A DNA stretch of 64,000 nt from Mobula hypostoma (lineage: Eukaryota). The position numbers were made by a program, and so were the translations under genes. The notes below the pieces were generated by a model that was not told the DNA's origin, did not search any database, and was given only the letters and a program-made list of their open reading frames with translations. Within the stretch, counting starts at the first letter, position 1; every line of letters begins with the position of its first letter. Shown piece after piece: positions 4,990 to 53,970 of this stretch. The stretch is from assembly GCF_963921235.1 (NCBI RefSeq), contig NC_086097.1, positions 5,084,001 to 5,148,000 on the forward strand, read 5' to 3'.

Positions 4990-7097
4990 CATAGGTACAT
5001 TCCAATGAGACAGGGAAGGGATGGTAGGGTACAGGAACCATGGTGTACCAAGGCTGTTGAAAATCTAGTCAAGAAAGAATAAAAGCTTACAAAAGGTTCA
5101 ACAAACTATGTAATGATAGAGATCCAAAAGATTATAAGGCTAGTAGGAAGGAGTTCAAGAATGAAATTAGGAGAGCCAGAAGGGGCCATGAGAATACTTT
5201 GGTGAGCAGGATTAAGGAGAACTCCAAGGCATTCTACAAGTATGTGAAGAGCAAGAGGATAAGACGTGACAGAATAGGACCTATCAAGCGTGACAGTGGA
5301 AAAGTGTGCATGGAACCGGAGAAGATAGCAGAGATACTTAATAAATACTTTGCTTCAGTATTCACTACAGAAAAGGATCTTGGCAATTGTAGGGATGACT
5401 TACAGCAGATTGAAAAGCTTGAGCTTATGAACATTAAGAAAGAGGAAAGCATCATGTTGGATTAGTCTCTGAGACTCGATAAGATGTACCCCAGGCTACT
5501 GTGGGAGGTGAGGGAGGAGATTGCTGAACCTCTGGCAATGATCTTTGCATCATCAATGAGGATAGGAGAGGTTCTGGAGGATTGGACGGTTGTGTATGTT
5601 GTTCCTTTATTCAAGAAAGGGAGTAGAGATAGCCCAGGAAATTACAGATCAGTGAGTCTTACTTCAGTGGTTGGTAAGCTGATGGAAAAGATCCTGAGAG
5701 GGAGGATTTATGAACATTTGGAGAGGCATAATATGATTAGGAATAGTCAGCATGATTTTGTTAAAGGCAGTCATGCTTACGAGTCTGATTGAATTTTTTG
5801 AGGATGTGACTAAACACATTGATGAAGGTAGAGTAGTAGATGTAGTGTATATGGACTTCAGCAAGGCATTTGATAAGGTACTCCATGCAAGGTTTATTGT
5901 GAAAGTAAGGAGGCATGGGATCCAAGGGGACATTGTTTTGTGAATCCAGAATTAGCTTGCCTACAGAAGGCAAAGAGTGATTGGAGATGGGTCATATTCT
6001 GCTTGGAGGTTGGTGACCAGTGGTGTGCCTCAAGGATCTGTTCTGGGACCCCTTCACTTTGTGATTTTTATAAATGACCTAGATGAGGAAGTGTAGGTTT
6101 GGGTTAGTAAATTTGCTGATGACGCAGAGGTTGGAGGTGTTGTGGATAGTGTGGAGGGCTGTCAGAGATTACAGCAGGACATTGGTAGGATGCAAAACTG
6201 GGCTGAGAAGTAGCAGATGGAGTTCAACCCAGATAAGTGTGAGGTGGTTCATTTTGGCAGGTCAAATATGATGGCAGAATATAGTATTAATGGACTCATG
6301 GCAGTGTGGAGGATCAGAGGGATCTTGGGGTCCGAGTCCATAGGGCACTCAAAGCTGCTGCACAGGTTGACTTTGTGGTTAAGAAGGCATACGGTGAATT
6401 GGCCTTCATCAACCGCGGGACTGAGTTTAACAGCTGAGAGGTAATGTTACAGATATATAGGACCCGGCTTTGACTGCCTGCTTATTTCTACTCTATTGAA
6501 TTTAGGAGCTAAGGGATAATGTTGCAGCTATATAGGACCCTGGTCAGACCCCACTTGGAGTACTGTGCTCAGTTCTGGTCGCCTCACTACAGGAAGGATG
6601 TGGAAACCATAGAAAGGGTGCGGAGGAGATTTACAAGGATGTTGGCTGGATTGGGGAGCATGCTTCATGAGAATAGGTTGAGTGAACTCGGCCTCTTCTT
6701 GGAGTGGCGGAGGATGAGAAGTGACCTGATAGAAGTGCAGAAGATAATGAGAGGCATTGATTGTGTGGATAGTCAGAGGCTTTTTCCCAGGGCTGAAATG
6801 GCTAACATGAGAGGGCATAGTTTTAAGGTGCTTGCAAGTAGGTACAGAGGAGATATCAGGGGTAAGTTTTTTACGCAGAGAGTGATGAGTGCGTGAAATG
6901 GGCTGCCGGCAACGGTGGTGGAGATGAATACGATAGGGTCTTTTAAGAGATTCCTGGATAGGTACATGGAGCTGAAAAAAATAGAGGGCTATGGGTAACC
7001 CGAGATAATTTCTCAAGTAAGTAAATGTTTGGCACAGCATTGTGGGCTGAAGTGCCTATATTGTGCTGCAGATTTTCTAAGTTTCTACGTTTCTAAT
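4990..7097 (+). mobile_element. 5'-truncated CR1/HER1-like LINE (RT pseudogene plus 3' UTR)
   Basis: Encodes PLFKKG, YMDFSKAFDKV, KFADD and LVRPHLEYC, with stops and frameshifts; ends in a short tandem-repeat tail. Confidence 0.9.
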
Positions 7098-8147: not shown

Positions 8148-11100
8148 GTGAGGTATCGTGTGCTTCTTGGAGTGCAACATCAAGTACACATTAAACAAAT
8201 ACACGCACGGGCGTCTTCGCTCTGTGGCCACTTCTTCAAGTCTTTCTGCAATCGGGGGGAGGGCGACGGAAGCAGTCAATGTGACGGCTGGACGCTCCTA
8301 GTCAAGAACCAGCACGAAAGTGGTGAATACTTGATTTAGTCGCTCAACATTTGGGCAGGAGCAGGAAAGTTGTTTGGTAGCAGGATCCACTCTGCTCACC
8401 CTGAACTGGGAAGGGGCTAGAAAAGGTGCCCCAAAAATAGTCTGTTTCACCCCATCCTGTCTGGAAAGCCGCGTCCAGAGGGATCACCATCATGTGGTCG
8501 AAAAACATCGAGAAGTGAAACTATGAAATTTGGAACCTGGAATATACGAACTCTGATGGATAACTCAAACTCAAACTGACCAGGGAGGAGAACTGCCTTT
8601 GTTGCCCGGGAACTCCAAAAATTCAACTTTGACATTACTGCTCTGAGTGAGACCCGCAGAGCTGGAGAAGGGCAACTAAAGGAAGAGCAAGGCCAATACA
8701 CCTTTTTCTGGAAAGAACTTGATCCTGAACAACCGAGGATCCATGGAGTAGGTTTTGCCATCTGAAACAGCCTACTTCAGAAGCTGACAGAGCAACCACT
8801 GGGAATCAACGAACGTCTCATGACTCTGCGAATCCAACTTGTCAAGAACCAACACACTATCATCATCAGCGCCTATGCTTCAACTCTGGATGCTGAAGAT
8901 GAAGTAAAGATGAACTTCTATGCCCAACTTGACACGTCCTTTCCTCTGTTCCCAACAATGACAAGATCATTCTCTTAGGAGACTTCATTGCCAGAGTTGG
9001 GAAAGATCATAGGCTCTGGACTGGAATAATAAGCAAGGAAGGAGTTGACAAAGTCAACAACAATGGAACACTCCTCTTCACCAAATGTGCTGAACACAAC
9101 CTGGTGATTACAAACACTCTTTTTCACCAGAAAAAAACAGGCACAAAGTCTCCTGGTAGCATTCACACTCCAAACACTGATACCTCATTGACTACATCAT
9201 CGTACGATCTCGGGACCAACAAGATGTACTGATAACAAGAGCTGTTACTGGTGCTGACGAGTGCTGGGCAGACCATCGACTCATCTCGTCCACCATGAGA
9301 ATGAGGATTTGGCCCAAAAGGAAACACCAAAATCAGAACACTATTAAGAAATGCAATGTTGACATCCTTCAAGACATCAGCCATGTACAGAAGTTCCAAC
9401 AAAATCTTCAAGAACAACTGCCTCAACAAATCCCACCATCTGTAGAAGAACACTGGAATCAATTGAAGGACGCTATCATCACCTCCTGCAAAGAAACCAT
9501 TGGTTCAAGATGAAAAAACATCAGGATTGGTTCGATGATAACGACAAACTACTCCAACAACTCATCAACGAAAAGAGAAAAACTTTCATCACCTTACAAA
9601 ATGACCAACAATCAGCTACCAAAAGGAAACACTATCAGGAATGCAAGGCTACAGTTCAGAAGAGCACCCGAAACCTGAAAAACTAATGGTGGAGGAAGAA
9701 AGCTCAGGAAATCCAACAACTAGCAGACGCCAACGACACTTGAGGCTTTTTCAACACAACTAACGCTATTTTTGGCCCATCCAGGCACGGTCAAGCCTCT
9801 CTCAAAAACAAAGATGGTTCAACCATCCTGAAGAGCAATGCTGACATCAATTCTGGATGGAGGGAGCATTTTCAAGATCTTCTAAATCAAACCGTCTCAT
9901 TTGACAGGAAGGTGATCAACAACATTCCAAAACAGCCCGTTGATGACTCCCTAAGCAAAATACCAACACTTGAAGAAGTCAAGGAAGTCATCAAAACCTT
10001 GAAAAACAACAAGGCCGCTGGACTCGATGGTATACCATCCGAGGTCTACGAAATTGGAGGTAATCCGCTTCATTATCAACTGCATCAAATTCTCATTAAG
10101 ATCTGGATAAATGAAGATGTACCAGCAGACTTTAGAGACTCAGCAATCGTTACCATCTACAAAAGAAAAGGCAATCGATCTGAATGCGGAAACTATCGTG
10201 GAATTTCTCTGTTAGCAACAGCAGGAAAGATCTTCACCTGCATCATGAACTACCAGCTCAAGCCTTTAGCTGAGAAGATCCTTCCGGAGACACAAGCCGG
10301 TTTTAGACCATCAAGTGGAGCAATCGACATGATCTTCACAGTGCGACAACTACAAGAAAAATGTCATGAACAATTTCAACCTTTGTACATGGCATTCATG
10401 GAGCTCACCAAAGCCTTTGACTCGGTATCAAAGGAACTCCTATGGGATGTCCTATCCACCTATGGATGCCCTGAAAAGTACATTCGAATCCTGAGACTCC
10501 TTCACGATGGTATGCTTGCCACAGTCATGGTCAGCAACAGTAACTGTGAGCCTTTTCAAGTTAGATCAGGAGTAAAACAGGGATGCGTGATTGCCCCAAC
10601 TTTGTTCACCATTTTCATTGTGACAATCATCCACATCATCAACGATGACCTACCCCCAGGAATCGAAATTGTCTACAGAACAGATGGCAGACTTTTCAAT
10701 CCTGCCTGTCTAGAGTCTAAAAACAAGACATCCACGAGTTCCCTCATCGAGTTCCAATACGCAAAATACAACAGTATTGCAGCTCTTTCAGAAAACCACC
10801 TCCAACAGATTCTGACTGCCTTCAACTATGCATACACGAAACTTGGACTTACCATCAATTCCAAGAATTCTCAGATCATCTACCAACCATCGCCAACTGA
10901 GACAAATCGGATAGAGCCATCAATTCAACTTGGCAAAACAACCCTGGAAAAAGTGGACCACTTTCCGTATCTTGGAAGTCACCTCTCCTCCAATGTCGAC
11001 CTTAATGACGAGATCCAACATCGTCTTAAATGTGCTGGAACAGCTTTTGAACGTCTCCAAACAAGAGTCTTTCATGATCGTGACCTCCGAACAGACACCA

Positions 11101-11625
11101 AAATGTTAGTGTACAAAGCACTGGTGATCCCAATGCCCCTGTATGCATCAGAAACCTGGACAATATACTGACGACATCTGAAGGCACTTTAATAGTTCCA
11201 TCAATGCTGTCTTCAATACATCTTAAATATCAGCTGGGAGTGGTCATGTTGTTCGGATGAAAGACGAATGTCTGCCAAAACAAATCTTCTACTCCCAGCT
11301 TAAAGGAGGCAAACATAAAAGAGGCGGACAACATGAAGAAATGTAACATCGACATCAACAATTGGGAAACCAATGCCAAGGACAGGAAACTCTGGCAAGC
11401 CATTATCCGAGGAGGAACAGCAACTTTCGAAGCCAACAGATGTGCAGAATTAGAAGAAAAGAGAAGAGAATGGAAAGAGAGGCAGCAACAACCAAAGCCT
11501 GATCTGCCATCTGGAACTACCTGTCCTGAATGCAGAAGAACTTTCAGAGCCAAAATTGGACTCATAAGCCACTTGAGAGCCCATAAATAGACCAACAGAA
11601 TGAAGACCATCATCCTCGACCTCGA
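8148..11625 (+). mobile_element. Near full-length RTE-clade LINE, inactivated
   Basis: APE endonuclease (GTWNIRTL, LSETR, SAYA), RT (YRGISLL, GVKQGC, YADD mutated to YAKY) and C-terminal C2H2 finger CPECRRTFRAKIGLISHLRAH. Several stops and frameshifts. Confidence 0.92.
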
Positions 11626-38754: not shown

Positions 38755-39505
38755 GCAATACATTGGAGGAACTCAGCAGGTCCGTCAGCATCAGTTGAAA
38801 AGGTTAATCAATGTTTCGGGCTGAAACCCTTCGTCAGGACTGAAGGAAGAACTTTGGGGAGGGTTTGAAGAATGCTGGTAGTTGGAAAAAACAGTAATTT
38901 GAAAGACAAAGGGGTCAGGGAGGGGAAGCAGGGAGGTGATTGGCAGGAGAACAATAGTAGAAGGAGGTGGAACTATTTGGGACCGCTTCGTCGAGCACCT
39001 CCACTCCGTCCGCCACAACAGACAGGATCTCCCGGTAGCCACCCACTTCAACTCTGCTTCCCATTCCCATTCAGATACGTCCATACATGGCCTCCTCTAC
39101 TGCCATGATGAGGCTAAACTTAGGTTGGAGGAGCAACACCTCATATACCGTCTAGGTAGTCTCCAGCCCCTTGGTATGAATATAGAATTCTCTGACTTCC
39201 AGTAATTCCCTCCCCCTCCCTTCCTCTATCCCTATTTCACATCACCTCCTTCTACTACTGCGCATTGTTCTCCTGCCAATCACCTCCCTGCTTCCCCTCC
39301 CCCACCCCTTTGTCTTTAAAATTACTGTTTTTTTCAACTACCAGCATTCTTCAAACCCTCCCCAAAGTTCTTCCCTCAGTCCTGACGAAGGGTTTCGACC
39401 TGAAACATCGACTAATCTTTTCAACTGATGCTGACTGGCCTGCTGAGTTCCTCCAGCGCATTGTGAGTGTTCCTTTGACAACGGCATCTGCAGATTATTT
39501 TGTGT
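38755..39505 (+). mobile_element. Penelope-like element with inverted terminal-repeat copy (fold-back)
   Basis: GIY-YIG C-terminus RFVEHL...VATHFN...RLEEQHLIYRLGSLQPLGMNIEF between inverted arms at about 38757-38970 and 39243-39463. Confidence 0.85.
39378..39413 (+). ncRNA. Minimal type I hammerhead ribozyme motif, slightly decayed
   Basis: AGTC-CTGACGA-AGGGTTTCGACCT-GAAA-CATC-GACT, with stem I AGTC/GACT. Confidence 0.65.
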
Positions 39506-41307: not shown

Positions 41308-41844
41308 AGACCATAAAACATAGGAGCAGAATTAGGCCGTGACTGATCAGAAAACGATCAATTTCCGCCTTAAGTATATGGATGGACTTGGCCTCCACCA
41401 CAGTCTGTAGCAGAACGTTCCAGCAATTTAATACTCCCTGGCTAAAAAATCCTCCTTACATCTGTTCTAAAAGGTCGCCCTTCAGTTTTGAGGCTGTGCC
41501 CTCTAGTGCTGGCTACCCCCAGCATAGGAAACATCCTCGCCACATTCACCTTATCTAGTCTTTTCAACATTCGGTAGGTTTCAATGAGATCTCCCACATT
41601 CTTCTAAATGATTCACATCTTCCCGTCTAAAACAATATAATTCACACACTAACAAGCTACCGTCACCAAGCCTTCACAATCAGAATCAGAGTCAGGGTTA
41701 ATATCACTGGCATGTGTACAGTGCAGTACAGTACATAATAATAAAATATAAATATATAATCGAATAAGTAATCCAAAAAAGAGCAAAAAAGAAAAAAAAA
41801 GTGAGCTACTGTACATGGGTTCTTTATAGGTACTTATCATTACA

Positions 41845-42572
41845 AGTGGCCAATCACCCCCTTCCTCATCTCCATTCTGGGCCCCAAGCAATCCTTCCAG
41901 GCAAGGCAACACTTCACCTGCAAACCTGCTGGGGCCGCTTATTGTGTCTGGTGCTCCCAATGCAGCCTCCTCTGTAAATTTGACTATTGCTTTGTCGATC
42001 ACCTCTGCTCCAACTGCCGAAAGTGGAACTTCGCTAGTGACCATACATTTTAATTCTGATTCCCATTCCTATTCCGATATGCCAGTCCACGGCCTTGCTT
42101 GTGCCAAGATGAGGCCACCCTCACAGTGGAGGAGCAACACCCTATATTCTGCCTGGATAGCCTTCAACCTGATGGGATGCATATCAATTTCTCCTTCTGG
42201 TAAAAAAATTGCCCTCCTCCCCCCTCTTTCTTCTATTCCCCACTCTGGTGTCCCACCTCTTCTCACCTGCCTGTCAATTCCTCCTGGATTCCCACCTCCT
42301 TTTTCTTCTATGATCCACTTTCCTCTCCTATCAGATTCAGTCCTCTCCAGCCCTTTACCTTTGCCACCCACTTGATTTCACCTATCACATTCTAGCTATC
42401 ATCTTTCCCTCCAACCATCAGTTATTCTGGCATCTTCGCCCCATCCATTGCAGTCCTGAAGAAGTGTCTTAGCCTGAAACTTTGACTGTCCATAGATGCT
42501 GCCTGATCTGCTGAGTTTCTCCAGCATTTCATGCCTGTTGTTTTGGATTTCCATCATCTGCAGACTTTCTCG
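41845..42572 (+). mobile_element. Penelope-like GIY-YIG fragment plus terminal repeat
   Basis: QSFQARQHFTC...YCVWCSQC..L motif region; degenerate hammerhead at 42452-42488. Confidence 0.78.
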
Positions 42573-43015: not shown

Positions 43016-43705
43016 ATTAGATTAGATTAGATTAGATTATGAGGACACGCAGTCCTCTTTTATTGTCGTTTAGTAATGCATGCATTAAGAAATGATACAA
43101 TGTTCCTCCAGAATGTTATCACGGAAACACAAGACAAACCAAGACTGAAAAACTGACTAAAACCATATAATTATAACATATAGTTACAACAGTGCAAAGC
43201 AATATTGTAATTTGATAAAGAACAGACCATGGGCATGGTAAAAAAAATCTGAAAGTCTCTCAAAAGTCCCATCATCTCACGCAGATGGTAGAAGGAAGAA
43301 AAACTCTCCCTGCCATGAGCTTCTAGCACCGCAAACTTGCCGATGCAACACCCTGGAAGCACCCGACCACAGCCTACTCTTGAGTCCATCCAAAAACTTC
43401 CAGCCTTCGACTAGCCCTCCGACACCGAGCACCGAGCACCATCTCTGCCGAGCGCTTCGACCCCGGCCCCAGCCCCGGCAATAGGCAAAGCCGAGGATCT
43501 GTGGCCTTCCCTCCGGAGATTCTCAATCGCACAGTAGCAGCGGCAGCGAAGCAGGCATTCCAGAAATTTCTCCAGATGTTCCTCCATGCTTCTCACATCT
43601 GTCTCCATCAAATCAAGATTGTGCACAGCCCCTACTTACAAATACAATATCATTTCGGAGCGGCCGCACGTGTTGCGTCGTGCCACCATCTTCTCCTCTT
43701 CTCCC
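43016..43705 (-). mobile_element. Non-autonomous retroelement with (CTAAT)n tail and GC-rich 5' end
   Basis: The plus strand shows (ATTAG)n then TTTTATT. The minus-strand 5' end begins AAGATGGTGG (YY1-like) and is CpG-rich. No ORF. Confidence 0.55.
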
Positions 43706-43836
43706 CAACAGACATATTGGTAAAATCATCCATCTGACAGTCTATTGTTCAATATTCAGACAGTATTTAAAACCTGGTTGTTCACGTTCTGTTTCTGAGT
43801 TACACTGGTAAAGTAAAAGCTATAAGTATTTTTCTC

Positions 43837-44015
43837 TAGGAAGAGGTACAGTCGACGTTTCAGGCCAAGACCCTTCGTCAGGACTCCTGACGAAGGGTCT
43901 CGGCCTGAAACGTCGACTGTACCTCTTCCTAGAGATGCTGTCTGGCCTGCTGCGTTTACCAGCAACTTTGATGTGTGTTGCTTGAATTTCCAGCATCTGC
44001 AGAATTCCTGTTGTT
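43837..44015 (+). mobile_element. Young 179-bp Penelope-derived insertion with fold-back 5' end
   Basis: 14-bp TSD TAAGTATTTTTCTC at 43823-43836 and 44016-44029. Confidence 0.88.
43850..43885 (-). ncRNA. Minimal type I hammerhead ribozyme motif, intact core
   Basis: The minus strand reads AGTC-CTGACGA-AGGGTCTTGGCCT-GAAA-C-GTC^GACT. A mirror copy lies on the plus strand at 43883-43918. Confidence 0.8.
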
Positions 44016-44284
44016 TAAGTATTTTTCTCCTTGTGTGGAAATCTGTAAGTAAAAGATAGTGTTTCAGAATAAAGATCCATGAGGTGAAAAGGAATTTCTT
44101 CCTTAAGAGGGTTGTATGTCTTGGGAATTCTCTACCTTGGAGAGATGTGGAGGCTGATTCATTGAATACATTTAAGAATGATCTTGATCTAAAAGGATTT
44201 TTAACCTAAAAAGAATCAGATTGTAGGAAGAGTCGGGGAAGTGGAAGTGGGGGCTGGCTCTCCTGCCCCCAGATCCACTGGGTT

Positions 44285-44910
44285 GTCAATATCTCTGAGG
44301 ACCTATCCCAGGCCGAACATATTGATGTAGCTACAATAAAGGCACAAAGGCAGCTATATTTTGTTAGGAGTTTGAGGAGACGGTATGTCACCAAAGTCAT
44401 ACTCGCAAATTTTTACAGTTGTACCATGGAGAGCATTCTAACTGGCTGCATCTCCATGTTTTATGGGGGGTGGTGGGGAATGGGTGCACAGCACACGATC
44501 AAAATAAGCTGCAGAAATTTGTGAACTCAGTCAGCTCCATCATGGCCACTAGATTCGCCACATCCAGGACATCTTCAAGGAGCAATGCCTCAAAAAGGCA
44601 GCATCCATCATTAAGAACCCGATCACCCAGGACACGTCCTCTTCTCATTACTACCATCAGGGACCTAAAGGAGCCAGAAGGCACAAACTCAATGATTCAG
44701 GAACTGCTTCTTCCCCTCTGCCATACAATTTCTAAATGGACATTGAACCCATAAACACTACCTCACTTTTTTTTTCTCTTTTTGCACTACTTATTTCACT
44801 TTTTAAAGACAAATATACCTACTGCATTTTGCAGTTTCTGTTATTATATACTGCAAGATGACAAATTTCACGACATATGTCAGTGATATTAAATCTGATT
44901 CTGATTTTTG
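44285..44910 (+). mobile_element. Rex1/Babar-like LINE 3' fragment
   Basis: KAQRQLYFVRSLRR and ESILTGCI motifs, with a CTGATT-type tail. Confidence 0.75.
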
Positions 44911-50368: not shown

Positions 50369-52084
50369 GGCAAACAGACAGCTTCCCCATCAGGTCTGGA
50401 GTCAGGCAGGGCTGTCCCCTCTCCCCTGTCTTGTTTGTCTGCTGCATTGAACCCTTTGCGGAAGCCATCAGGAGGGATGAGGGCATAAGAAGGGTGACGC
50501 TGCCAGGCAGTGGAGGGACCCAAGTGAAAACCTCCCTGTACATGGACGACGTCACCGTCTTCTGCTCTGATCCGAGGTCAGTTCGCAGGTTGATTGGCAC
50601 CTGCGAACAGTTCGAGCTAGCGTCGGGGGCCAGGGTCAACCGCACGAAGAGCGAAGCCATGCTCTTCTGCAACTGGCCCAACCGATCCAGCTCCCCTTCA
50701 CCATCAGGTCTGACCACGTGAAGGTGTTGGGGATCTGGTTCGGAGGGGCGGAGGCGTGCAACAAGAACTGGCAGGAGCGGACTGCCAAGGTGAAACAGAA
50801 ACTGGGTCTGTGGGGAGGGCGCTCCCTGTCGATAACGGGCAAGAACCTGGTCATCAGGTGTGAGGTGCTCTCAGGGCTGCTGTACTTGGTGCAGGTCTGG
50901 CCCGTCCCCTGCTCCTACAGCTCGGAAATCACCCGGGCTGTCTTCAGATTCGTCTGGGGATCCAAGATGGAGCGGGTGAGATGGACCGCCGTGCACAAGT
51001 CCCTGGACAACAGGGGCAAGAACGTCCCCAATGTCGCCCTCACCCTGATGGCCAGCTTCGTATGTGGCTGCATCAGGTTGTGTATAGAGCCCAGGTATGT
51101 GGGCACCAAGTATCACTATGTGCCCAGGTTCTACTTGTCGCCCTGGCTACGAAGGATGGGTCTGGCCCCACTCCCGCGCAACGTCCCAGTCAGCTGGTCG
51201 TTGCCGGCATACCTGTCCTACGTAGCAAAGTTCTTCCAGGAGAACGCCTTTGACCACAGGGCCATCAGGCAGTGGTCGGCACGTAGTGTCCTGCAGGCAC
51301 TGCAGGAGAAGGACGTGATGGACACAGTGGGGTGGTTCCCTGAGCTGACTTTCCAGTTCATCTGGCAAAATGCCTCATCGCCAGATCTAACCAACAGGCA
51401 CCAAGACCTCGCATGGCTGGCAGTGAGAGGGGCCCTCCCAGTCAGAGCCCTCCTGTACGCCCGGAACGTCGTCTCTGCACCCCACTGCCCACGGGAGGAC
51501 TGCAGTGAGGAGGAGTCTGTGACCCACCTATTTGCACACTGCCAGTTCGCAAAGAGGGTGTGGAGGAGGATGGACGGGCTAGTGTCATGGTTTATCCCCA
51601 GCAGCTGCGTAACAGAGGACTCTCTGATCTACGGGCTGTTCCCGGGGACACACACGGAGACCAACGTCCGGTGCTGCTGGCAGATCATCAACTCGGTGAA
51701 AGACGCTCTTTGGTCGGCCCGAAACTTGATGATCTACCAGCACATGGAGATGTCCGTGGGAGAATGCTGCCGACTGGCACATTCTCGGCTGCAGGAGTAC
51801 GTGCTGAGGGACGCACTGAAACTTGGTGCAACCACCGCAAGGGCCCGGTGGGGAAGGACCACGGTATAGATTTCCTCACCCGCGGGAGTGGGAGGGGTCG
51901 GAGGGCGGGGAGTATACCCCTCAACAACGATGTGGTAAGCTGAACTACTGGAGTGCCACGTGGGTGGCTATAAATACGGATATGTACTGTGTATAATGGA
52001 AACGTATGTAAAGGATGAAAAGTTATTGAATGGTTTATTGTATATATTTATTATTGAATAAAGTATATTTTGAAATAAAAAAAA
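50369..52084 (+). mobile_element. 5'-truncated Tx1-like (L1 clade) retrotransposon, young
   Basis: RT motifs SGVRQGCPLSP and YMDD; 383-aa C-terminal ORF with a CCHC finger (CPREDC..EESVTHLFAHC); AATAAA and poly(A); GC/CpG-rich. Confidence 0.88.
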
Positions 52085-52202
52085 CTGTTCTGCATATGAC
52101 AGGGAGTAATTACAGCTCAGCTCACTGGTCGCCTCACTACAGGAAGGATGTGGAAGCCATAAAGGGTGCAGAGTAGATTTACAAGGATGTAGCCTGGATT
52201 GG

Positions 52203-53970
52203 CGTTGGCAACAGGAGTGAAGGTAGGACCGATTAGAGATAAAGGTGGGAAGATGTGCCTGGAGGCTGTGGAAGTGAGCGAGGTCCTCAATGAATACTTC
52301 TCTTCAATATTCACCAATGAGAGGGAACTTGATGATGGTGAGGACAATATGAGTGAGGTTGATGTTCTGGAGCATGTTGATATTAAGGCAGAGGAGGTGT
52401 TGGAGTTATTAAAATACATTAGGGTGGATAAGTCCCTGGGGTCTGATGGAATATTCGCCAGGCAGCTCAACGAGGTGAGGGAAGAGATTGCTGAGCCTCT
52501 GGCTAGGATCTTTATGTCCTTGTTGTCTACGGGAATGGTACCGGAGGATTGGAGGGAGGCGAATGTTGTCCCCTTGTTCAAAAAAGGTAGTAAGGATAGT
52601 CCGGGTAATTATAGACCAGTGAGCCTTACGCCTGTGGTGAGAAAGCTGTTGGAAAATATTCTTACAGATAGGACCTATGGGCATTTAGAGAATCATGGTC
52701 TGATCAGGGACAGTCAGCATGCCTTTGTGAAGGGCAGATTCTGTCTAACAAGCTTGATAGAGTTCTTTGAGGAGGTGACCAGGCATATAAATGAGGGTAG
52801 TGCAGTGGATGTGATCCATATGGATTTTAGTAAGGCATTTGACAAGGTTCCACATGGTAGGCTTATTCAGAAAGTCAGAAGGCATGGGATTCAGGGAAGT
52901 TTGACCAAGTGGATTCAGAAATGGCTTGCCTGCAGTAGGCAGAAGGTTGTGGTGGAGGGAGTACATTTGGATTAGAGGATTGTGACTAGTGGTGTCACAC
53001 AAGGATCTGTTCTGGGACCTCTACTTTTTGCAATTTTTATTAACGACCTGGATGTGGGGGTAGAAGGGTGGGTTGGCAAGTTTGCAGATGACACAAAAGT
53101 TGGTGGTGTTGTAGAAGGTGTAGCGGATTGTCGAAGATTGCAGAGAGACATTGATAGGTTACAGAAGTGGGCTGACAAGTGGCAGATGGAGTTCAACCTG
53201 GAGAAGTGTGAGGTGGTACACTTTGGAAGGACGAACTACAAGGCAGAGTACAAAGTAAATGGCAGGATACTTGGTAGTGTGGAGGAGCAGAGGGATCTTG
53301 GGGTACATGTCTACAGATATCTGAAAGTTGCCTCACGGGTAGATAGGGTAGTTAAGAAGGCTTATGGGATGTTAGCTTTCATAAGTCGAGTGATAGAGTT
53401 TAAGAGTCACGAGGTAATGATGCAGCTCTATAAAACTCTGGTTAGGCCACACTTGGAGTATTGTGTCCAGTTCTGGTCACCTCTCTATAGGAAGGATGTG
53501 GAAGCATTGGAAAGGGTACAGAGGAGATTTACCAGGATGCTGCCTGGTTTAGAGAGTGTGCATTATGATAAGACATTAAGGGAGCTAGGGCTTTCCTCTT
53601 TGGAGAGAAGGAGGATGAGAGGAGACATGATAGAGGTGTACAAGATAATAAGAGGAATAGATAGAGTGGATAGCCAGCACCTCTTCCCCAGGGCACCACT
53701 GCTCAATACAAGAGGACATGGCTTTAAGGTAAGGGATGGGAAGTTCAAGGGGGATATTAGAGGAAGGTTTTTTACTCAAAGAGTGGTTGGTGCGTGGAAC
53801 GTACTGCCTGAGTCAGTGGTGGAGGCAGATACACTAGTGAAATTTAAGAGACTACTAGACAGGTATATGGAGAAATTTAAGGTGAGGGGTTATATGGGAG
53901 GCAGGGTTTGAGGGTCAGCACAACAATGTGGGTTGAAGGGCCTGTATTGTGCTGTACTATTCTATGTTCT
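52203..53970 (+). mobile_element. Young 5'-truncated CR1-like LINE nested in another CR1
   Basis: RT frame 52199-53911 is open except for one TAG (52973-52975). Flanked by ATTGG/ATTAG; the host CR1 at 52122-52202 resumes at 53971. Confidence 0.92.

What the first reader, a model, noticed from the sequence alone, without database searches (positions are those of the whole stretch)
43823..44029. TSD-flanked 103-bp palindrome carrying a hammerhead ribozyme core on each strand
Seen: arms 43833-43883 and 43885-43935 are reverse complements (50/51) around a 1-nt spacer, in a 179-bp insertion with a perfect 14-bp TSD. Each strand reads CTGACGA-stem II-GAAA-C-GTC^GACT, and stem I (AGTC/GACT) is intact on the minus strand. 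Known: Penelope-like elements carry minimal type I hammerheads with a short palindromic helix III, thought to work as dimers, and often insert with inverted terminal repeats. Inference: this is a recent fold-back insertion of a small non-coding, ribozyme-bearing retroelement. If transcribed, the long hairpin would compete with ribozyme folding and could be a Dicer or ADAR substrate.
Basis: partly seen in the sequence, partly recalled or inferred. Interest (0 to 1): 0.75.

Follow-up and report, generated by a model that had tools for sequence, protein, structure and literature searches.

The report
Fold-back Penelope retroelement leader copy
The 179-base hairpin-shaped insertion is a dead-end, head-to-head double copy of the front end of a very abundant Penelope-like jumping gene, hammerhead ribozyme motif included: a correct catch, but of a kind already described.

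Summary
There are 51-nt inverted arms (50/51) around one base, a perfect 14-bp target-site duplication (TSD), and a complete hammerhead core on each strand.

It is not a stand-alone element. Each arm is the 5' leader of a Penelope-like element (PLE) of this 3.5-Gb genome. In locus L056 the same leader lies about 300 nt after a GIY-YIG ORF and runs into a 1055-codon RT/GIY-YIG open frame.

- **Copy numbers:** the ordinary leader junction has 86,448 pattern matches. The palindrome junction has 224 forward and 204 reverse matches.
- **Ends:** the right arm ends at the tailed 3' terminus B. Sister copies' left arms mostly end at the untailed terminus A, 34 nt shorter. The window's left arm is cut to 47 nt.
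- **Tail rule:** 9 of 9 unselected head-to-head pairs also have one A and one B end. This is the published PLE "tail at one end" layout.
- **Axis:** the palindrome axis is the leader's discrete 5' end, where many single-arm copies also begin.
- **Origin:** arm haplotypes mirror those of ordinary copies, which argues for recurrent formation.
- **Limits:** Rfam finds no hammerhead, covariation gives no support, and cleavage is untested.

Verdict: a new member of a known kind.

The parts
43823..43836 (.). Left copy of the 14-bp target-site duplication, TAAGTATTTTTCTC. Its last 4 nt (TCTC) are microhomology with the element.
   Evidence: D1, 100% identity
43837..43884 (-). Left arm: an inverted copy of the first 47-48 nt of the PLE leader (GTCCTGACGA... 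read on the minus strand). It is outer-truncated, since sister copies reach 95-98 nt and end at site A. Base 43884 is the axis base (G on the minus strand, the leader's first base).
43885..43981 (+). Right arm: the PLE leader from TCCTGACGA to 3' terminus A (...GTGTGTTGC), 97 nt. It differs at 5 of 97 positions (94.8% identity) from the leader in front of the 1055-codon PLE frame of L056; the 25-nt hammerhead core is identical.
43982..44015 (+). The 34-nt 'tail' between 3' termini A and B (TTGAATTTCCAGCATCTGCAGAATTCCTGTTGTT). In the intact PLE this stretch continues into the 5' UTR and ORF. [quoted passage not shown]
   Evidence: PMC8557442 and PMC11167929 (passages / main text read)
44016..44029 (.). 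Right copy of the 14-bp target-site duplication.
43887..43919 (+). Minimal hammerhead motif of the right arm: CUGACGA, a bulged A, helix II GGGU/GCCU with a CUCG loop, GAAA, palindromic ACGU in place of helix III, C17, and a predicted cut at 43914/43915. Helix I is reduced to UC.../GA...
   Evidence: sequence; alignment; no Rfam match
43849..43881 (-). Mirror hammerhead motif of the left arm, with one loop-II difference (CUUG) and a predicted cut at 43854/43853. The 4-bp AGUC/GACU helix I is created by the junction.

Best explanation
**What it is.** The insert is a dead-on-arrival, head-to-head double copy of the roughly 100-135-nt 5' leader of an abundant endonuclease-bearing Penelope-like element (PLE). 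The leader RNA starts at (G)UCCUGACGA. It therefore begins inside helix I of the PLE's minimal hammerhead. It ends at one of two alternative 3' termini just upstream of the RT/GIY-YIG ORF: A (...GTGTGTTGC), or B, 34-45 nt further on (...CCTGTTGTT[TGCGTTTAAAT]).

**Shown.**
- The arms are homologous to the leader of a PLE.
- Insertion was by retroposition, with a 14-bp TSD here and 10-15 bp in 26 of the 29 sister copies.
- The right arm ends at B and the left arm is an inverted copy of the leader.
- The palindrome axis coincides with the discrete 5' end at which single-arm leader copies also begin.
- The two ends of head-to-head pairs always differ (one A, one B).
- Palindromes carry the same set of haplotypes as ordinary copies.

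**Inferred mechanism.** The PLE protein nicked both target strands, and each nick primed a cDNA on a leader RNA. This is what the anole PLE does in vitro. Both cDNAs ran off at the RNA's 5' end and were joined head to head. In the window copy the tail-less arm was primed or joined at an internal GAGA/TCTC microhomology, which left 47 nt. I put about 0.45 on this sub-mechanism and about 0.3 on the self-priming/copy-back variant proposed for rotifer PLEs.

**Activity of this copy.** The hammerhead motif is the PLE's own min-HHR. In this copy it is a passenger. Helix I is truncated, and any transcript would fold into a 47-bp hairpin instead.
For: **Family and anatomy.**
- The insert is a family member. 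One search returned 80 matches at 90-100% identity (full-length ones 93-100%; 1632 first-look candidates, 40 scored).
- Among the 30 loci read (the window plus 29 others), 22 have a 95-98-nt left arm that starts GCAACACAC. That is the reverse complement of right-arm positions up to A. The other 8, including the window, have shorter left arms.
- 27 of 30 have exact TSDs of at least 9 nt.

**Link to a PLE.**
- In L056 the 25-nt hammerhead core identical to the window's right arm (0 substitutions; the 97-nt arms are 94.8% identical) lies about 300 nt after an ORF that passes Pfam GIY-YIG (23.1 bits, cut-off 22.6).
- It continues through A and the tail into a 1055-codon open frame.
- That frame gives sub-threshold RVT_1 (18 bits, E = 0.0026) and partial GIY-YIG (17.7 bits).
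- Its ESM-Atlas look-alikes score 0.97. They are animal clusters carrying RVT_1, GIY-YIG, HTH_animal and DUF8422.
- A second leader 3.5 kb downstream ends at A.
- In 9 of 12 loci found with the window's own degenerate endonuclease fragment, a module lies about 205-750 nt downstream of the match.
- That fragment family aligns to a Pfam-positive GIY-YIG ORF at E = 7e-6.

**Pattern counts in the genome.**
- Ordinary leader junction: 42,983 + 43,465 matches.
- Palindrome junction: 224 + 204 matches.
- Reversed control patterns: 0.

**Architecture.**
- 9 of 9 head-to-head pairs taken from the first 100 ordinary matches have one end at A and the other at B.
- Among 12 single-arm copies, A:B is 4:8. 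Independent choice would give A/B in about 44% of pairs.

**Axis is an RNA 5' end.**
- 1,943 matches have neither ordinary nor palindromic sequence upstream of TCCTGA..., and G is the commonest base at -1.
- Of 16 such sites read, 12 are single-arm insertions that start at (G)TCC and have 9-14-bp TSDs. Two are palindrome variants and 2 are unclear.

**Recurrent origin.**
- Palindromic arms carry at least 6 multi-site haplotypes. These also occur in ordinary and single-arm copies.
- The two arms of a copy nearly always share a haplotype. L018 differs at 4 diagnostic sites and L030 at 2.

**Literature.**
- Inverted 5'-truncated copies, and a 30-40-bp tail at one end only: PMC8557442 (passages) and PMC3846280 (passages).
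- Nicking and extension of both strands, and two internal RT start sites that bound the tail: PMC11167929 (main text).
- min-HHRs in PLE repeats: PMC4209133 (parts 1-2).
Against: - No Rfam hammerhead model matches, either at gathering score or at E <= 10.
- The three helices get no covariation support in 31 modules of this genome. 79% of cells are paired, but 135 of 500 shuffles do as well.
- RT identity rests on a sub-threshold Pfam hit and on language-model look-alikes. There is no PDB sequence match, and the protein search found nothing.
- 8 of 30 palindromes have variably shortened tail-less arms. That is also what 5' truncation of a hairpin-shaped template would give, so some copies could descend from palindromic masters.
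- The cause of the discrete leader 5' end is unknown. It could be a transcription start, RNA processing, or an RT stop.
- The both-strand-priming model does not by itself explain why the ends are always A plus B.
- Copy counts are pattern matches, not curated copies.
- Neither expression nor cleavage was observed.
Confidence: 0.85

Rival explanations
1. A self-standing hairpin retroposon (SINE-like). On this view a palindromic master copy is transcribed as a hairpin RNA and copied in trans by the PLE enzyme starting at site B. It amplified as its own family, and 5' truncation produced short left arms such as the window's.
For: - 8 of 30 copies have left arms shortened at different points, each with a normal 13-15-bp TSD. 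That is the pattern expected of 5' truncation.
- A few hundred copies share exactly the same axis.
- The arms co-vary between subgroups.
- PLE RT initiates internally, so it could use any transcript that contains site B (PMC11167929, main text).
Against: - Every diagnostic variant sits in both arms, and the same multi-site haplotypes occur in ordinary and single-arm copies. A palindromic lineage should instead accumulate arm-specific markers.
- 22 of 30 left ends stop sharply at site A with the TSD directly adjacent. There is no promoter to start a transcript there, and no carried-along upstream flank.
- The axis coincides with the 5' end of many single-arm copies, so no founder accident is needed.
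- Chimeric arms in L018 and L030 are hard to derive from a hairpin template.
Confidence: 0.12
2. A DNA-level fold-back element or MITE, or a hairpin (microRNA-like) gene, that carries a hammerhead-like motif by chance.
For: - The structure is a near-perfect long hairpin.
- Palindromic microRNA models of Rfam give sub-threshold matches. For example mir-5681 scores 53 bits against a gathering score of 88.
Against: - TSD length varies from 9 to 15 bp, and the two ends differ (A against B). Neither fits a transposase-cut element with terminal inverted repeats.
- The arms are contiguous with a PLE ORF.
- The microRNA hits only reflect generic hairpin shape and fall far below threshold.
- The motif sits in the same place in many PLE families of this genome.
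Confidence: 0.02
3. An assembly artefact: a spurious palindrome created by the assembler.
For: Palindromes are a known failure mode of assemblers. PMC8557442 notes (passages read) that PLE inverted structures cause assembly problems.
Against: - The same junction occurs at hundreds of separate loci, each with its own flanks and TSD.
- Contigs of other public runs contain opposite-strand joints within the leader (table 5).
Confidence: 0.01

Closest known systems
Canonical insertion unit of endonuclease-bearing Penelope-like elements: pLTR, an adjacent inverted 5'-truncated copy, and a 30-40-bp tail at one end (Evgen'ev & Arkhipova; Arkhipova et al. 2013, PMC3846280; Craig et al. 2021, PMC8557442)
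   Same: - Head-to-head inverted copies with a palindromic junction.
- A variable-length TSD.
- A 34-45-nt tail at one end only (9 of 9 pairs).
- A hammerhead motif in the repeated leader.
- An RT/GIY-YIG partner arranged in partial tandem.
   Different: - Both copies are reduced to the leader alone (97 + 131 nt, or 47 + 131 nt in the window).
- They meet exactly at the leader's first base, giving an almost loop-less palindrome.
- That junction recurs a few hundred times.
Minimal hammerheads (min-HHR) of metazoan PLEs (Cervera & de la Pena 2014, PMC4209133)
   Same: - All core bases are present (C3-A9, G12-A14, A15.1, U16.1, C17).
- There is no helix III, and positions 15.2-16.2 are palindromic (ACGU).
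- There is one extra base between A9 and 10.1.
- In the parent element helix I is 4-5 bp.
- The motif lies in the PLE repeat just upstream of the ORF.
   Different: - Helix II is only about 4 bp with a tetraloop, whereas the Schistosoma families described have 7-8 bp.
- Pair 10.1-11.1 is G-U in this young family. Among the 31 aligned modules it is G-C in 13, G-U in 13, A-U in 1 and unpaired in 4.
- In the palindromic copies helix I is cut off.
- Activity was not tested.
PAc, the Poseidon PLE of Anolis carolinensis studied in vitro (Frangieh et al. 2024, PMC11167929)
   Same: - The hammerhead lies next to the ORF start.
- Insertions end at two internal sites some tens of nt downstream of the hammerhead, and these sites bound the 'tail'.
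- The enzyme nicks and extends both target strands, which offers a route to head-to-head products.
   Different: - This is a different host and a different PLE family.
- Site A lies in a GU-rich stem-loop on the sense strand, not an AC-rich one.
- The distances from the predicted cut are 67 nt (A) and 101-112 nt (B). The roughly 85-92 nt for PAc is my own arithmetic from the paper's figures (RT start 111-118 bp into the ORF, cut site 26 bp in).
- Nothing here is biochemical.
Animal non-LTR retrozymes (Cervera & de la Pena 2020, PMC7229834, listing only; Li et al. 2026 preprint 10.64898/2026.07.22.740005, results read)
   Same: They are short, non-coding, hammerhead-bearing derivatives of PLE leader/pLTR sequence.
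   Different: Retrozymes are head-to-tail tandem repeats thought to give circular RNAs. This insert is a single, dispersed, head-to-head copy with a TSD, and it has no second same-strand hammerhead.

Membership tests
Penelope-like element (EN+ PLE) insertion | An autonomous partner encodes RT plus a C-terminal GIY-YIG endonuclease in one ORF. | tested here: met
   L056 has a 1055-codon open frame directly downstream of the same leader. GIY-YIG scores 23.1 bits (cut-off 22.6) in the upstream partial copy and 17.7 bits in the long frame. RVT_1 reaches only 18 bits, below its 29.6 cut-off. Atlas look-alikes at 0.97 carry RVT_1 and GIY-YIG. The RT part is therefore supported but sub-threshold.
Penelope-like element (EN+ PLE) insertion | Partial tandem / pseudo-LTR arrangement, with the repeated leader at both ends of the ORF. 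| tested here: met
   In L056 the order is: end of an upstream ORF, leader at 1611, the ORF, leader at 5125.
Penelope-like element (EN+ PLE) insertion | An inverted 5'-truncated copy adjacent to the direct copy, with a 30-40-bp tail at one end only. | tested here: met
   In the window the left arm lacks the tail and the right arm carries a 34-nt tail. 22 of 30 palindromes have A/B ends and 8 have a truncated arm plus B, with no B/B. 9 of 9 unselected pairs are A/B.
Penelope-like element (EN+ PLE) insertion | Retroposition marks: a variable-length TSD and truncation. | tested here: met
   The window has a 14-bp TSD. 27 of 30 copies have exact repeats of at least 9 nt, against 12 of 870 control pairs.
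Hammerhead ribozyme, Rfam families (Hammerhead_1, _3, _II, HH9, HH10) | A match to a curated covariance model. | tested here: not met
   No match at gathering score over the whole window. No match at E <= 10 on 43700-44150. The family names listed here are recalled, not taken from a call.
Hammerhead ribozyme, Rfam families (Hammerhead_1, _3, _II, HH9, HH10) | The conserved catalytic core CUGANGA ... GAAA ... UH. | tested here: met
   The core is read directly on both strands. In the alignment of 31 modules the core columns are invariant or at least 90% conserved.
Hammerhead ribozyme, Rfam families (Hammerhead_1, _3, _II, HH9, HH10) | Self-cleavage at the predicted site. | not testable with these tools
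   This needs in vitro transcription or mapping of 5'-OH RNA ends. The only indirect hint is the excess of palindrome axes at GTC|GAC.
PLE minimal hammerhead (min-HHR, PMC4209133) | No intramolecular helix III, and palindromic positions 15.2-16.2 for dimer pairing. | tested here: met
   A15.1-C-G-U16.1 (ACGU) has no loop. Across 31 modules the 15.2/16.2 pair is C-G in 10, U-G in 9 and unpaired in 12.
PLE minimal hammerhead (min-HHR, PMC4209133) | An unpaired base between A9 and 10.1, and a G10.1-C11.1 pair. | tested here: inconclusive
   The extra A is invariant in the alignment. Pair 10.1-11.1 is G-U in the window copy. Across 31 modules it is G-C in 13, G-U in 13, A-U in 1 and unpaired in 4.
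PLE minimal hammerhead (min-HHR, PMC4209133) | Helices supported by compensatory changes. | tested here: not met
   The covariation score is 0.174 against a shuffled mean of 0.168, and 147 of 500 shuffles score as high. The modules of this genome are too alike or too decayed to test this.
Non-LTR retrozyme | Head-to-tail tandem repeats, each unit with a same-strand hammerhead. | tested here: not met
   This is a single dispersed copy, the two motifs lie on opposite strands, and the insert is bounded by a TSD.
tRNA-derived SINE | A polymerase III tRNA-like head. | tested here: not met
   ARAGORN finds nothing in 43500-44300. The 5' end is an inverted leader, not a tRNA-like head.
MITE / fold-back DNA transposon | A TSD of fixed length and identical terminal inverted repeats. 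| tested here: not met
   TSDs range from 9 to 15 bp and the two termini differ by the tail.

The most novel reading that the evidence does not exclude
The genome may hold a fossil record of the 5' ends of PLE template RNAs. Head-to-head palindromes and single-arm copies pile up at two positions only.

The first is the leader's first base, which may be the still unmapped transcription start, placed inside helix I of the hammerhead.

The second is the predicted hammerhead cleavage site GUC^G. Exact palindromes occur there at 122 sites, against 3 at a control axis 10 nt away. Single-arm junctions are about 2-3 times commoner there than at the control position.

If the second peak comes from ribozyme-cut RNA, it would be the first in vivo evidence that metazoan PLE min-hammerheads cleave. 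The alternative is that the natural GTCGAC palindrome favours self-priming at that spot.
Probability: 0.3. Interest if true: 0.6.

Novelty: new member of a known kind. Interest (0 to 1): 0.33.

Why it matters
As an object it is ordinary. It is one of a few hundred palindromic by-products of a PLE family whose leader junction matches more than 86,000 times in a 3.5-Gb genome.

Its value is as a clean, minimal specimen of the unexplained PLE insertion architecture. It has two arms, one tail and a loop-less junction, which makes three open points directly countable in a genome:
- where the template RNA begins;
- why the two ends always differ, one at A and one at B;
- whether the hammerhead ever cuts in vivo. 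Frangieh et al. 2024 (PMC11167929) report no RNA-seq reads beginning or ending at the hammerhead cut site of the anole PLE.

Practically, such perfect hairpins are sites of assembly error. If transcribed within host genes they are also sources of double-stranded RNA.

Tried and rejected
**RNA family and structure tests**
- Rfam over the whole window at gathering score, and over 451 nt at E <= 10, gave no hammerhead. Only generic hairpin microRNA models matched, all below threshold.
- A covariation test of helices I, II and the helix III palindrome on 31 modules gave no support beyond shuffles.

**Protein searches**
- Pfam on the degenerate endonuclease fragments of the window and of loci L032, L038 and L053-L055 found no relevant family; the only matches were two weak ones judged spurious (E 0.02-0.04, below cut-off).
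- The search for homologous proteins with the L055 fragment ('longer' mode) scored none of 796 candidates.
- A PDB sequence search with the 1055-aa frame gave 0 matches.
- BLASTP of L055 against L044 was not significant.
- The best-scoring GIY-YIG family of the genome (L043-L052) turned out to be a different PLE family. No leader of that family's own was found within 1.5 kb; the leader modules seen in five of these ten loci lie elsewhere and look like separate insertions of the ordinary family.

**RNA evidence**
- No RNA holder was listed. All 22 runs are kept as contigs, and 'RNA' is only a guess for 18 of them.
- Laying four runs gave contigs only. This says nothing about starts, ends, strand or level of any RNA, and the depth profile cannot be used.

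**Technical failures**
16 short stretches were fetched instead.
- One search failed on the server side and was repeated.

**Not done**
- The empty-site check at a paralogous or related locus.

**Ideas considered and dropped**
- A second hammerhead cutting at the axis (UUA^G). No core motif lies upstream of that position.
- A 3' splice site as the origin of the leader's 5' end. The pyrimidine tract plus AG is there, but most copies begin one base before the expected exon start.
Full report
**1. The observation**

One search confirms two 51-nt arms (43833-43883 and 43885-43935), 98% complementary, around a single base. It also confirms an exact 14-nt direct repeat at 43823-43836 and 44016-44029, so the insert is 43837-44015 (179 bp).

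The outer 4 nt of the left arm (TCTC) belong to the repeat. The inserted left arm is therefore 47 nt, and the left junction has 4 nt of microhomology.

Reading, each strand carries CUGACGA, then a 13-nt segment, then GAAA, then CGUC, then GACUG. AGUC precedes the core only on the minus strand, because the centre base 43884 is C.

The insert RNA would fold at -111.5 kcal/mol (z = -14.9). The single arm with its tail folds at -34.5 kcal/mol, which is not unusual (z = -1.1).

**2. It is one copy of a family, and the short form of it**

The window lies in a 3.48-Gb, 200-contig assembly. The insert matches many loci at 90-100% identity, full-length matches at 93-100% (80 matches, 1632 first-look candidates, 40 scored).

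I read 30 loci, L001 being the window itself.
- 22 have a left arm of 95-98 nt. It begins GCAACACAC, which is the reverse complement of the right arm up to ...GTGTGTTGC. I call that point terminus A.
- 8, including the window, have shorter left arms of different lengths.
- All right arms continue past A through a 34-nt tail. They end within about 12 nt of ...CCTGTTGTT(TGCGTTTAAAT), which I call terminus B.
- 27 of 30 have exact flanking repeats of 9-15 nt. Only 12 of 870 mismatched flank pairs reach 9 nt.

The TSD length varies, the arms are truncated and the 3' end is ragged. These are marks of retroposition, not of a cut-and-paste element.

**3. What the arms are**

A fuzzy search for the hammerhead core over the window and the first 30 loci gave 78 hits.

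Many hits are not palindromic. They share the core and the downstream sequence, but have a different, mutually similar upstream stretch: a pyrimidine-rich run ending in ...CAGTC or ...CAGTTAGTC directly before CTGA. The window alone holds nine more such modules.

The module at 42456 lies about 250 nt downstream of frame-shifted fragments that read like the C-terminal part of a GIY-YIG endonuclease. That reading began as a recollection, so I tested it.
- The window fragment finds more than 100,000 first-look candidates in the genome.
- In 9 of 12 loci a module lies about 205-750 nt downstream of the match.
- One fragment, L032, aligns to the GIY-YIG domain of a Pfam-positive ORF, L044 (33.7 bits), at E = 7e-6.
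- Searching with the L034 fragment led to a copy with a 1055-codon open frame, fetched as L056.

In L056 the order is as follows.
- The end of an upstream ORF that passes Pfam GIY-YIG (23.1 bits against a cut-off of 22.6).
- About 300 nt of spacer.
- A hammerhead core with 0 substitutions from the window's right arm (the full 97-nt arms are 94.8% identical).
- Terminus A and the tail sequence, which run straight on into the long open frame.
- A second leader about 3.5 kb downstream, which ends at A against unrelated flank.

The long frame gives only a sub-threshold RVT_1 match (18 bits, E = 0.0026) and a partial GIY-YIG match (17.7 bits). Its language-model look-alikes (score 0.97) are animal clusters carrying RVT_1, GIY-YIG, HTH_animal and DUF8422. 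There was no PDB sequence match.

Taken together, this is a partial-tandem Penelope-like element. The arms of the window palindrome are its 5' leader.

**4. Numbers**

All counts below come from pattern searches of the own genome. The reversed control patterns always gave 0.

| Pattern | Matches |
|---|---|
| Ordinary junction (upstream sequence + core), up to 2 mismatches | 42,983 + 43,465 |
| Palindrome junction, up to 2 mismatches | 224 + 204 |

The palindrome pattern is nearly self-complementary, so most copies count on both strands. That means a few hundred copies.

**5. The architecture is the published PLE one**

Among the first 100 ordinary matches on contig 1, several lie head to head. 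I fetched nine such pairs and aligned them to L056.
- In 9 of 9, one outer end lies at A and the other at B.
- The inner ends vary widely: two pairs are nearly symmetric and seven are asymmetric.
- No palindrome among the 30 has a tail at both ends.
- Single-arm copies end at A in 4 and at B in 8 of the 12 examined. Independent choice would therefore give an A/B pair only about 44% of the time.

The literature describes exactly this layout.
- Craig et al. 2021 (PMC8557442, passages read) describe frequent 5' truncation, partial tandems, an inverted 5'-truncated copy adjacent to the 5' end, and a 30-40-bp tail often present at one end only.
- Arkhipova et al. 2013 (PMC3846280, passages read) describe the same layout in a rotifer. 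They note palindromes at the inverted junction and propose self-priming.
- Frangieh et al. 2024 (PMC11167929, main text read) show that an anole PLE starts reverse transcription at two internal sites that bound the tail. They also show that it nicks and extends both target strands.

**6. Why the axis is where it is**

I searched for leader copies whose upstream sequence is neither the ordinary one nor the palindromic one. This gave 1,943 exact matches, with G the commonest base directly before TCCTGA.

Of 16 that I read:
- 12 are simple single-arm insertions that begin at (G)TCCTGACGA, end at A or B, and have 9-14-bp TSDs;
- 2 are palindrome variants;
- 2 are unclear.

The template RNA therefore has a discrete 5' end at the palindrome axis. 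The palindrome is two run-off copies of that leader joined head to head. What makes that end is not shown. It could be a transcription start, RNA processing or an RT stop.

In passing, the base lies in a YYANWYY-like context (a motif I recall, not one from a call). It also follows a pyrimidine tract plus AG.

**7. One master or many births?**

I scored five diagnostic sites in 111 arms.
- Palindromic arms carry at least six multi-site haplotypes. Each also occurs among ordinary or single-arm copies.
- Both arms of a copy nearly always share the haplotype. L018 differs at four sites and L030 at two.

A self-propagating hairpin lineage should collect arm-specific markers. Instead the variants sit in both arms and mirror the parent family. 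This favours recurrent formation from PLE leader RNAs.

Two observations point to two separately templated arms rather than a simple copy-back:
- the chimeric arms in L018 and L030;
- asymmetric pairs in which either the A-ended or the B-ended arm is the longer one.

Against this, 8 of 30 shortened tail-less arms are equally what 5' truncation of a hairpin template, or an incomplete copy-back, would give. The window's TCTC microhomology fits either an internal microhomology-primed start or microhomology end joining.

I therefore give the both-strand model about 0.45, copy-back about 0.3 and hairpin masters about 0.12.

**8. Is it a hammerhead?**

*For.*
- All core bases are present.
- It has the min-HHR layout of Cervera & de la Pena 2014 (PMC4209133, parts 1-2 read): no helix III, a palindromic ACGU, and one extra base after A9.
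- In the parent element helix I is 4-5 bp.
- It occupies the canonical place in the PLE leader.
- The core is conserved across 31 modules from several PLE families of this genome, while the flanks diverge.

*Against, or missing.*
- No Rfam model matches.
- Helix II is short, about 4 bp.
- Pair 10.1-11.1 is G-U in this young family. It is G-C in 13 of the 31 modules.
- There is no covariation signal.
- Nothing here shows cleavage.

In the window copy both motifs lack most of the native helix I. They would also be locked in the 47-bp hairpin, so they are relics.

**9. A possible footprint of cleavage** (the bold reading)

Exact palindromes whose axis is the predicted cut site (...CAGTC|GACTG...) occur at 122 sites. 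Four of the five I read have the same ends and TSDs as the main class. A control axis 10 nt downstream gives 3 sites, none of them exact.

Junctions of non-family sequence directly at the cut site number 541, against 221 at the control position. After removing obvious internal-deletion variants by eye, this is roughly a 2-3-fold excess.

Of 10 such junctions read:
- 5 look like simple junctions, though their TSDs were not verified;
- 4 are asymmetric palindromes with one full arm and one arm starting at or near the cut site;
- 1 is a mutated ordinary copy.

This is what ribozyme-cut templates would leave. However, GTCGAC is itself a 6-nt palindrome that could favour self-priming at that spot. 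The much weaker excess among simple junctions fits that alternative. I give the cleavage reading about 0.3.

**10. Context and earlier notes**

The surroundings are repeat-rich. They hold LINE-type RT frames (RVT_1 84.8 bits at 9744-11171; also 52193-53911) and many decayed PLE leaders.

After forming my reading I looked up the scan's earlier notes. Two follow-ups on other genomes, e1-7788964 and e1-7788970, reached the same class of conclusion: fold-back, dead-on-arrival PLE tail-end copies carrying min-hammerheads.

**Verdict**

The finding is real and was correctly interpreted. It belongs to a known kind and is a new member of it. The interest lies only in what its family-wide statistics may say about PLE template RNA ends.

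Noticed in passing
window module starts: + strand 4576, 20626, 38030, 38438, 39382, 42456, 47379; - strand 54912, 38837: There are nine further PLE leader/hammerhead modules of several older families. Most have decayed cores (for example CGAAA changed to CAAAA) and a conserved downstream block ...GATGCTGCCTGACCTGCTGAGTT....
   Followed up: partly
window 41805-42203 (+), with the module at 42456: Frame-shifted fragments of a GIY-YIG-type endonuclease end of an old PLE lie about 250 nt upstream of its leader. Pfam does not recognise them. Homology is shown only through relatives.
   Followed up: yes
window 38791-39428: This is a head-to-head pair of another PLE family: modules at 38837 (-) and 39382 (+), about 545 bp apart, with arms about 90% identical.
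   Followed up: no
L057-L065 (contig 1 of the genome): In 9 of 9 head-to-head PLE pairs one outer end is at terminus A and the other at terminus B. Either the A-ended arm (4 pairs) or the B-ended arm (3 pairs) can be the longer one, and two pairs are nearly symmetric. This strict A/B pairing is not explained by independent priming or by simple copy-back.
   Followed up: partly
L056:1550-1612 and all ordinary copies: Directly upstream of the leader's first base lies a pyrimidine tract ending in CAG TTAG, which looks like a 3' splice site. Cervera & de la Pena (PMC4209133) note that in Drosophila virilis Penelope the intron ends at the 5' end of hammerhead helix I.
   Followed up: no
L043-L052, e.g. 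G000:C130:559-575 kb and C18:109.59-109.60 Mb: A second PLE family has a stronger GIY-YIG match (up to 35.6 bits) and a CxxC-type linker. It sits in roughly 3-6-kb tandem arrays, several near contig ends. My motif search found no leader of that family's own within 1.5 kb; leader modules of the ordinary family do occur elsewhere in five of these loci.
   Followed up: no
window 9744-11171, 50571-51869, 52193-53911 (+): These are LINE-type open frames: RVT_1 at 84.8 bits, zf-RVT at 40.1 bits, and RVT_1 at 53 and 41 bits. They are unrelated to the finding.
   Followed up: no
L021:626-851 and L075, L085: These are variant fold-backs of the same leader with other junctions. One has an extra 20 nt of upstream sequence in the loop, one has a 4-nt insertion at the axis, and one has an internal deletion with the tail on the other arm.
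   Followed up: no
L056:1450-1850 laid on runs X1, X5, X9, X19: Contigs from runs labelled as four different coded organisms hold the leader at 90% identity or more (8966, 4995, 25 and 1330 contigs laid). Many contigs diverge into unlike sequence right after positions 1705/1706 and 1744/1745, which are termini A and B (table 7).
   Followed up: no
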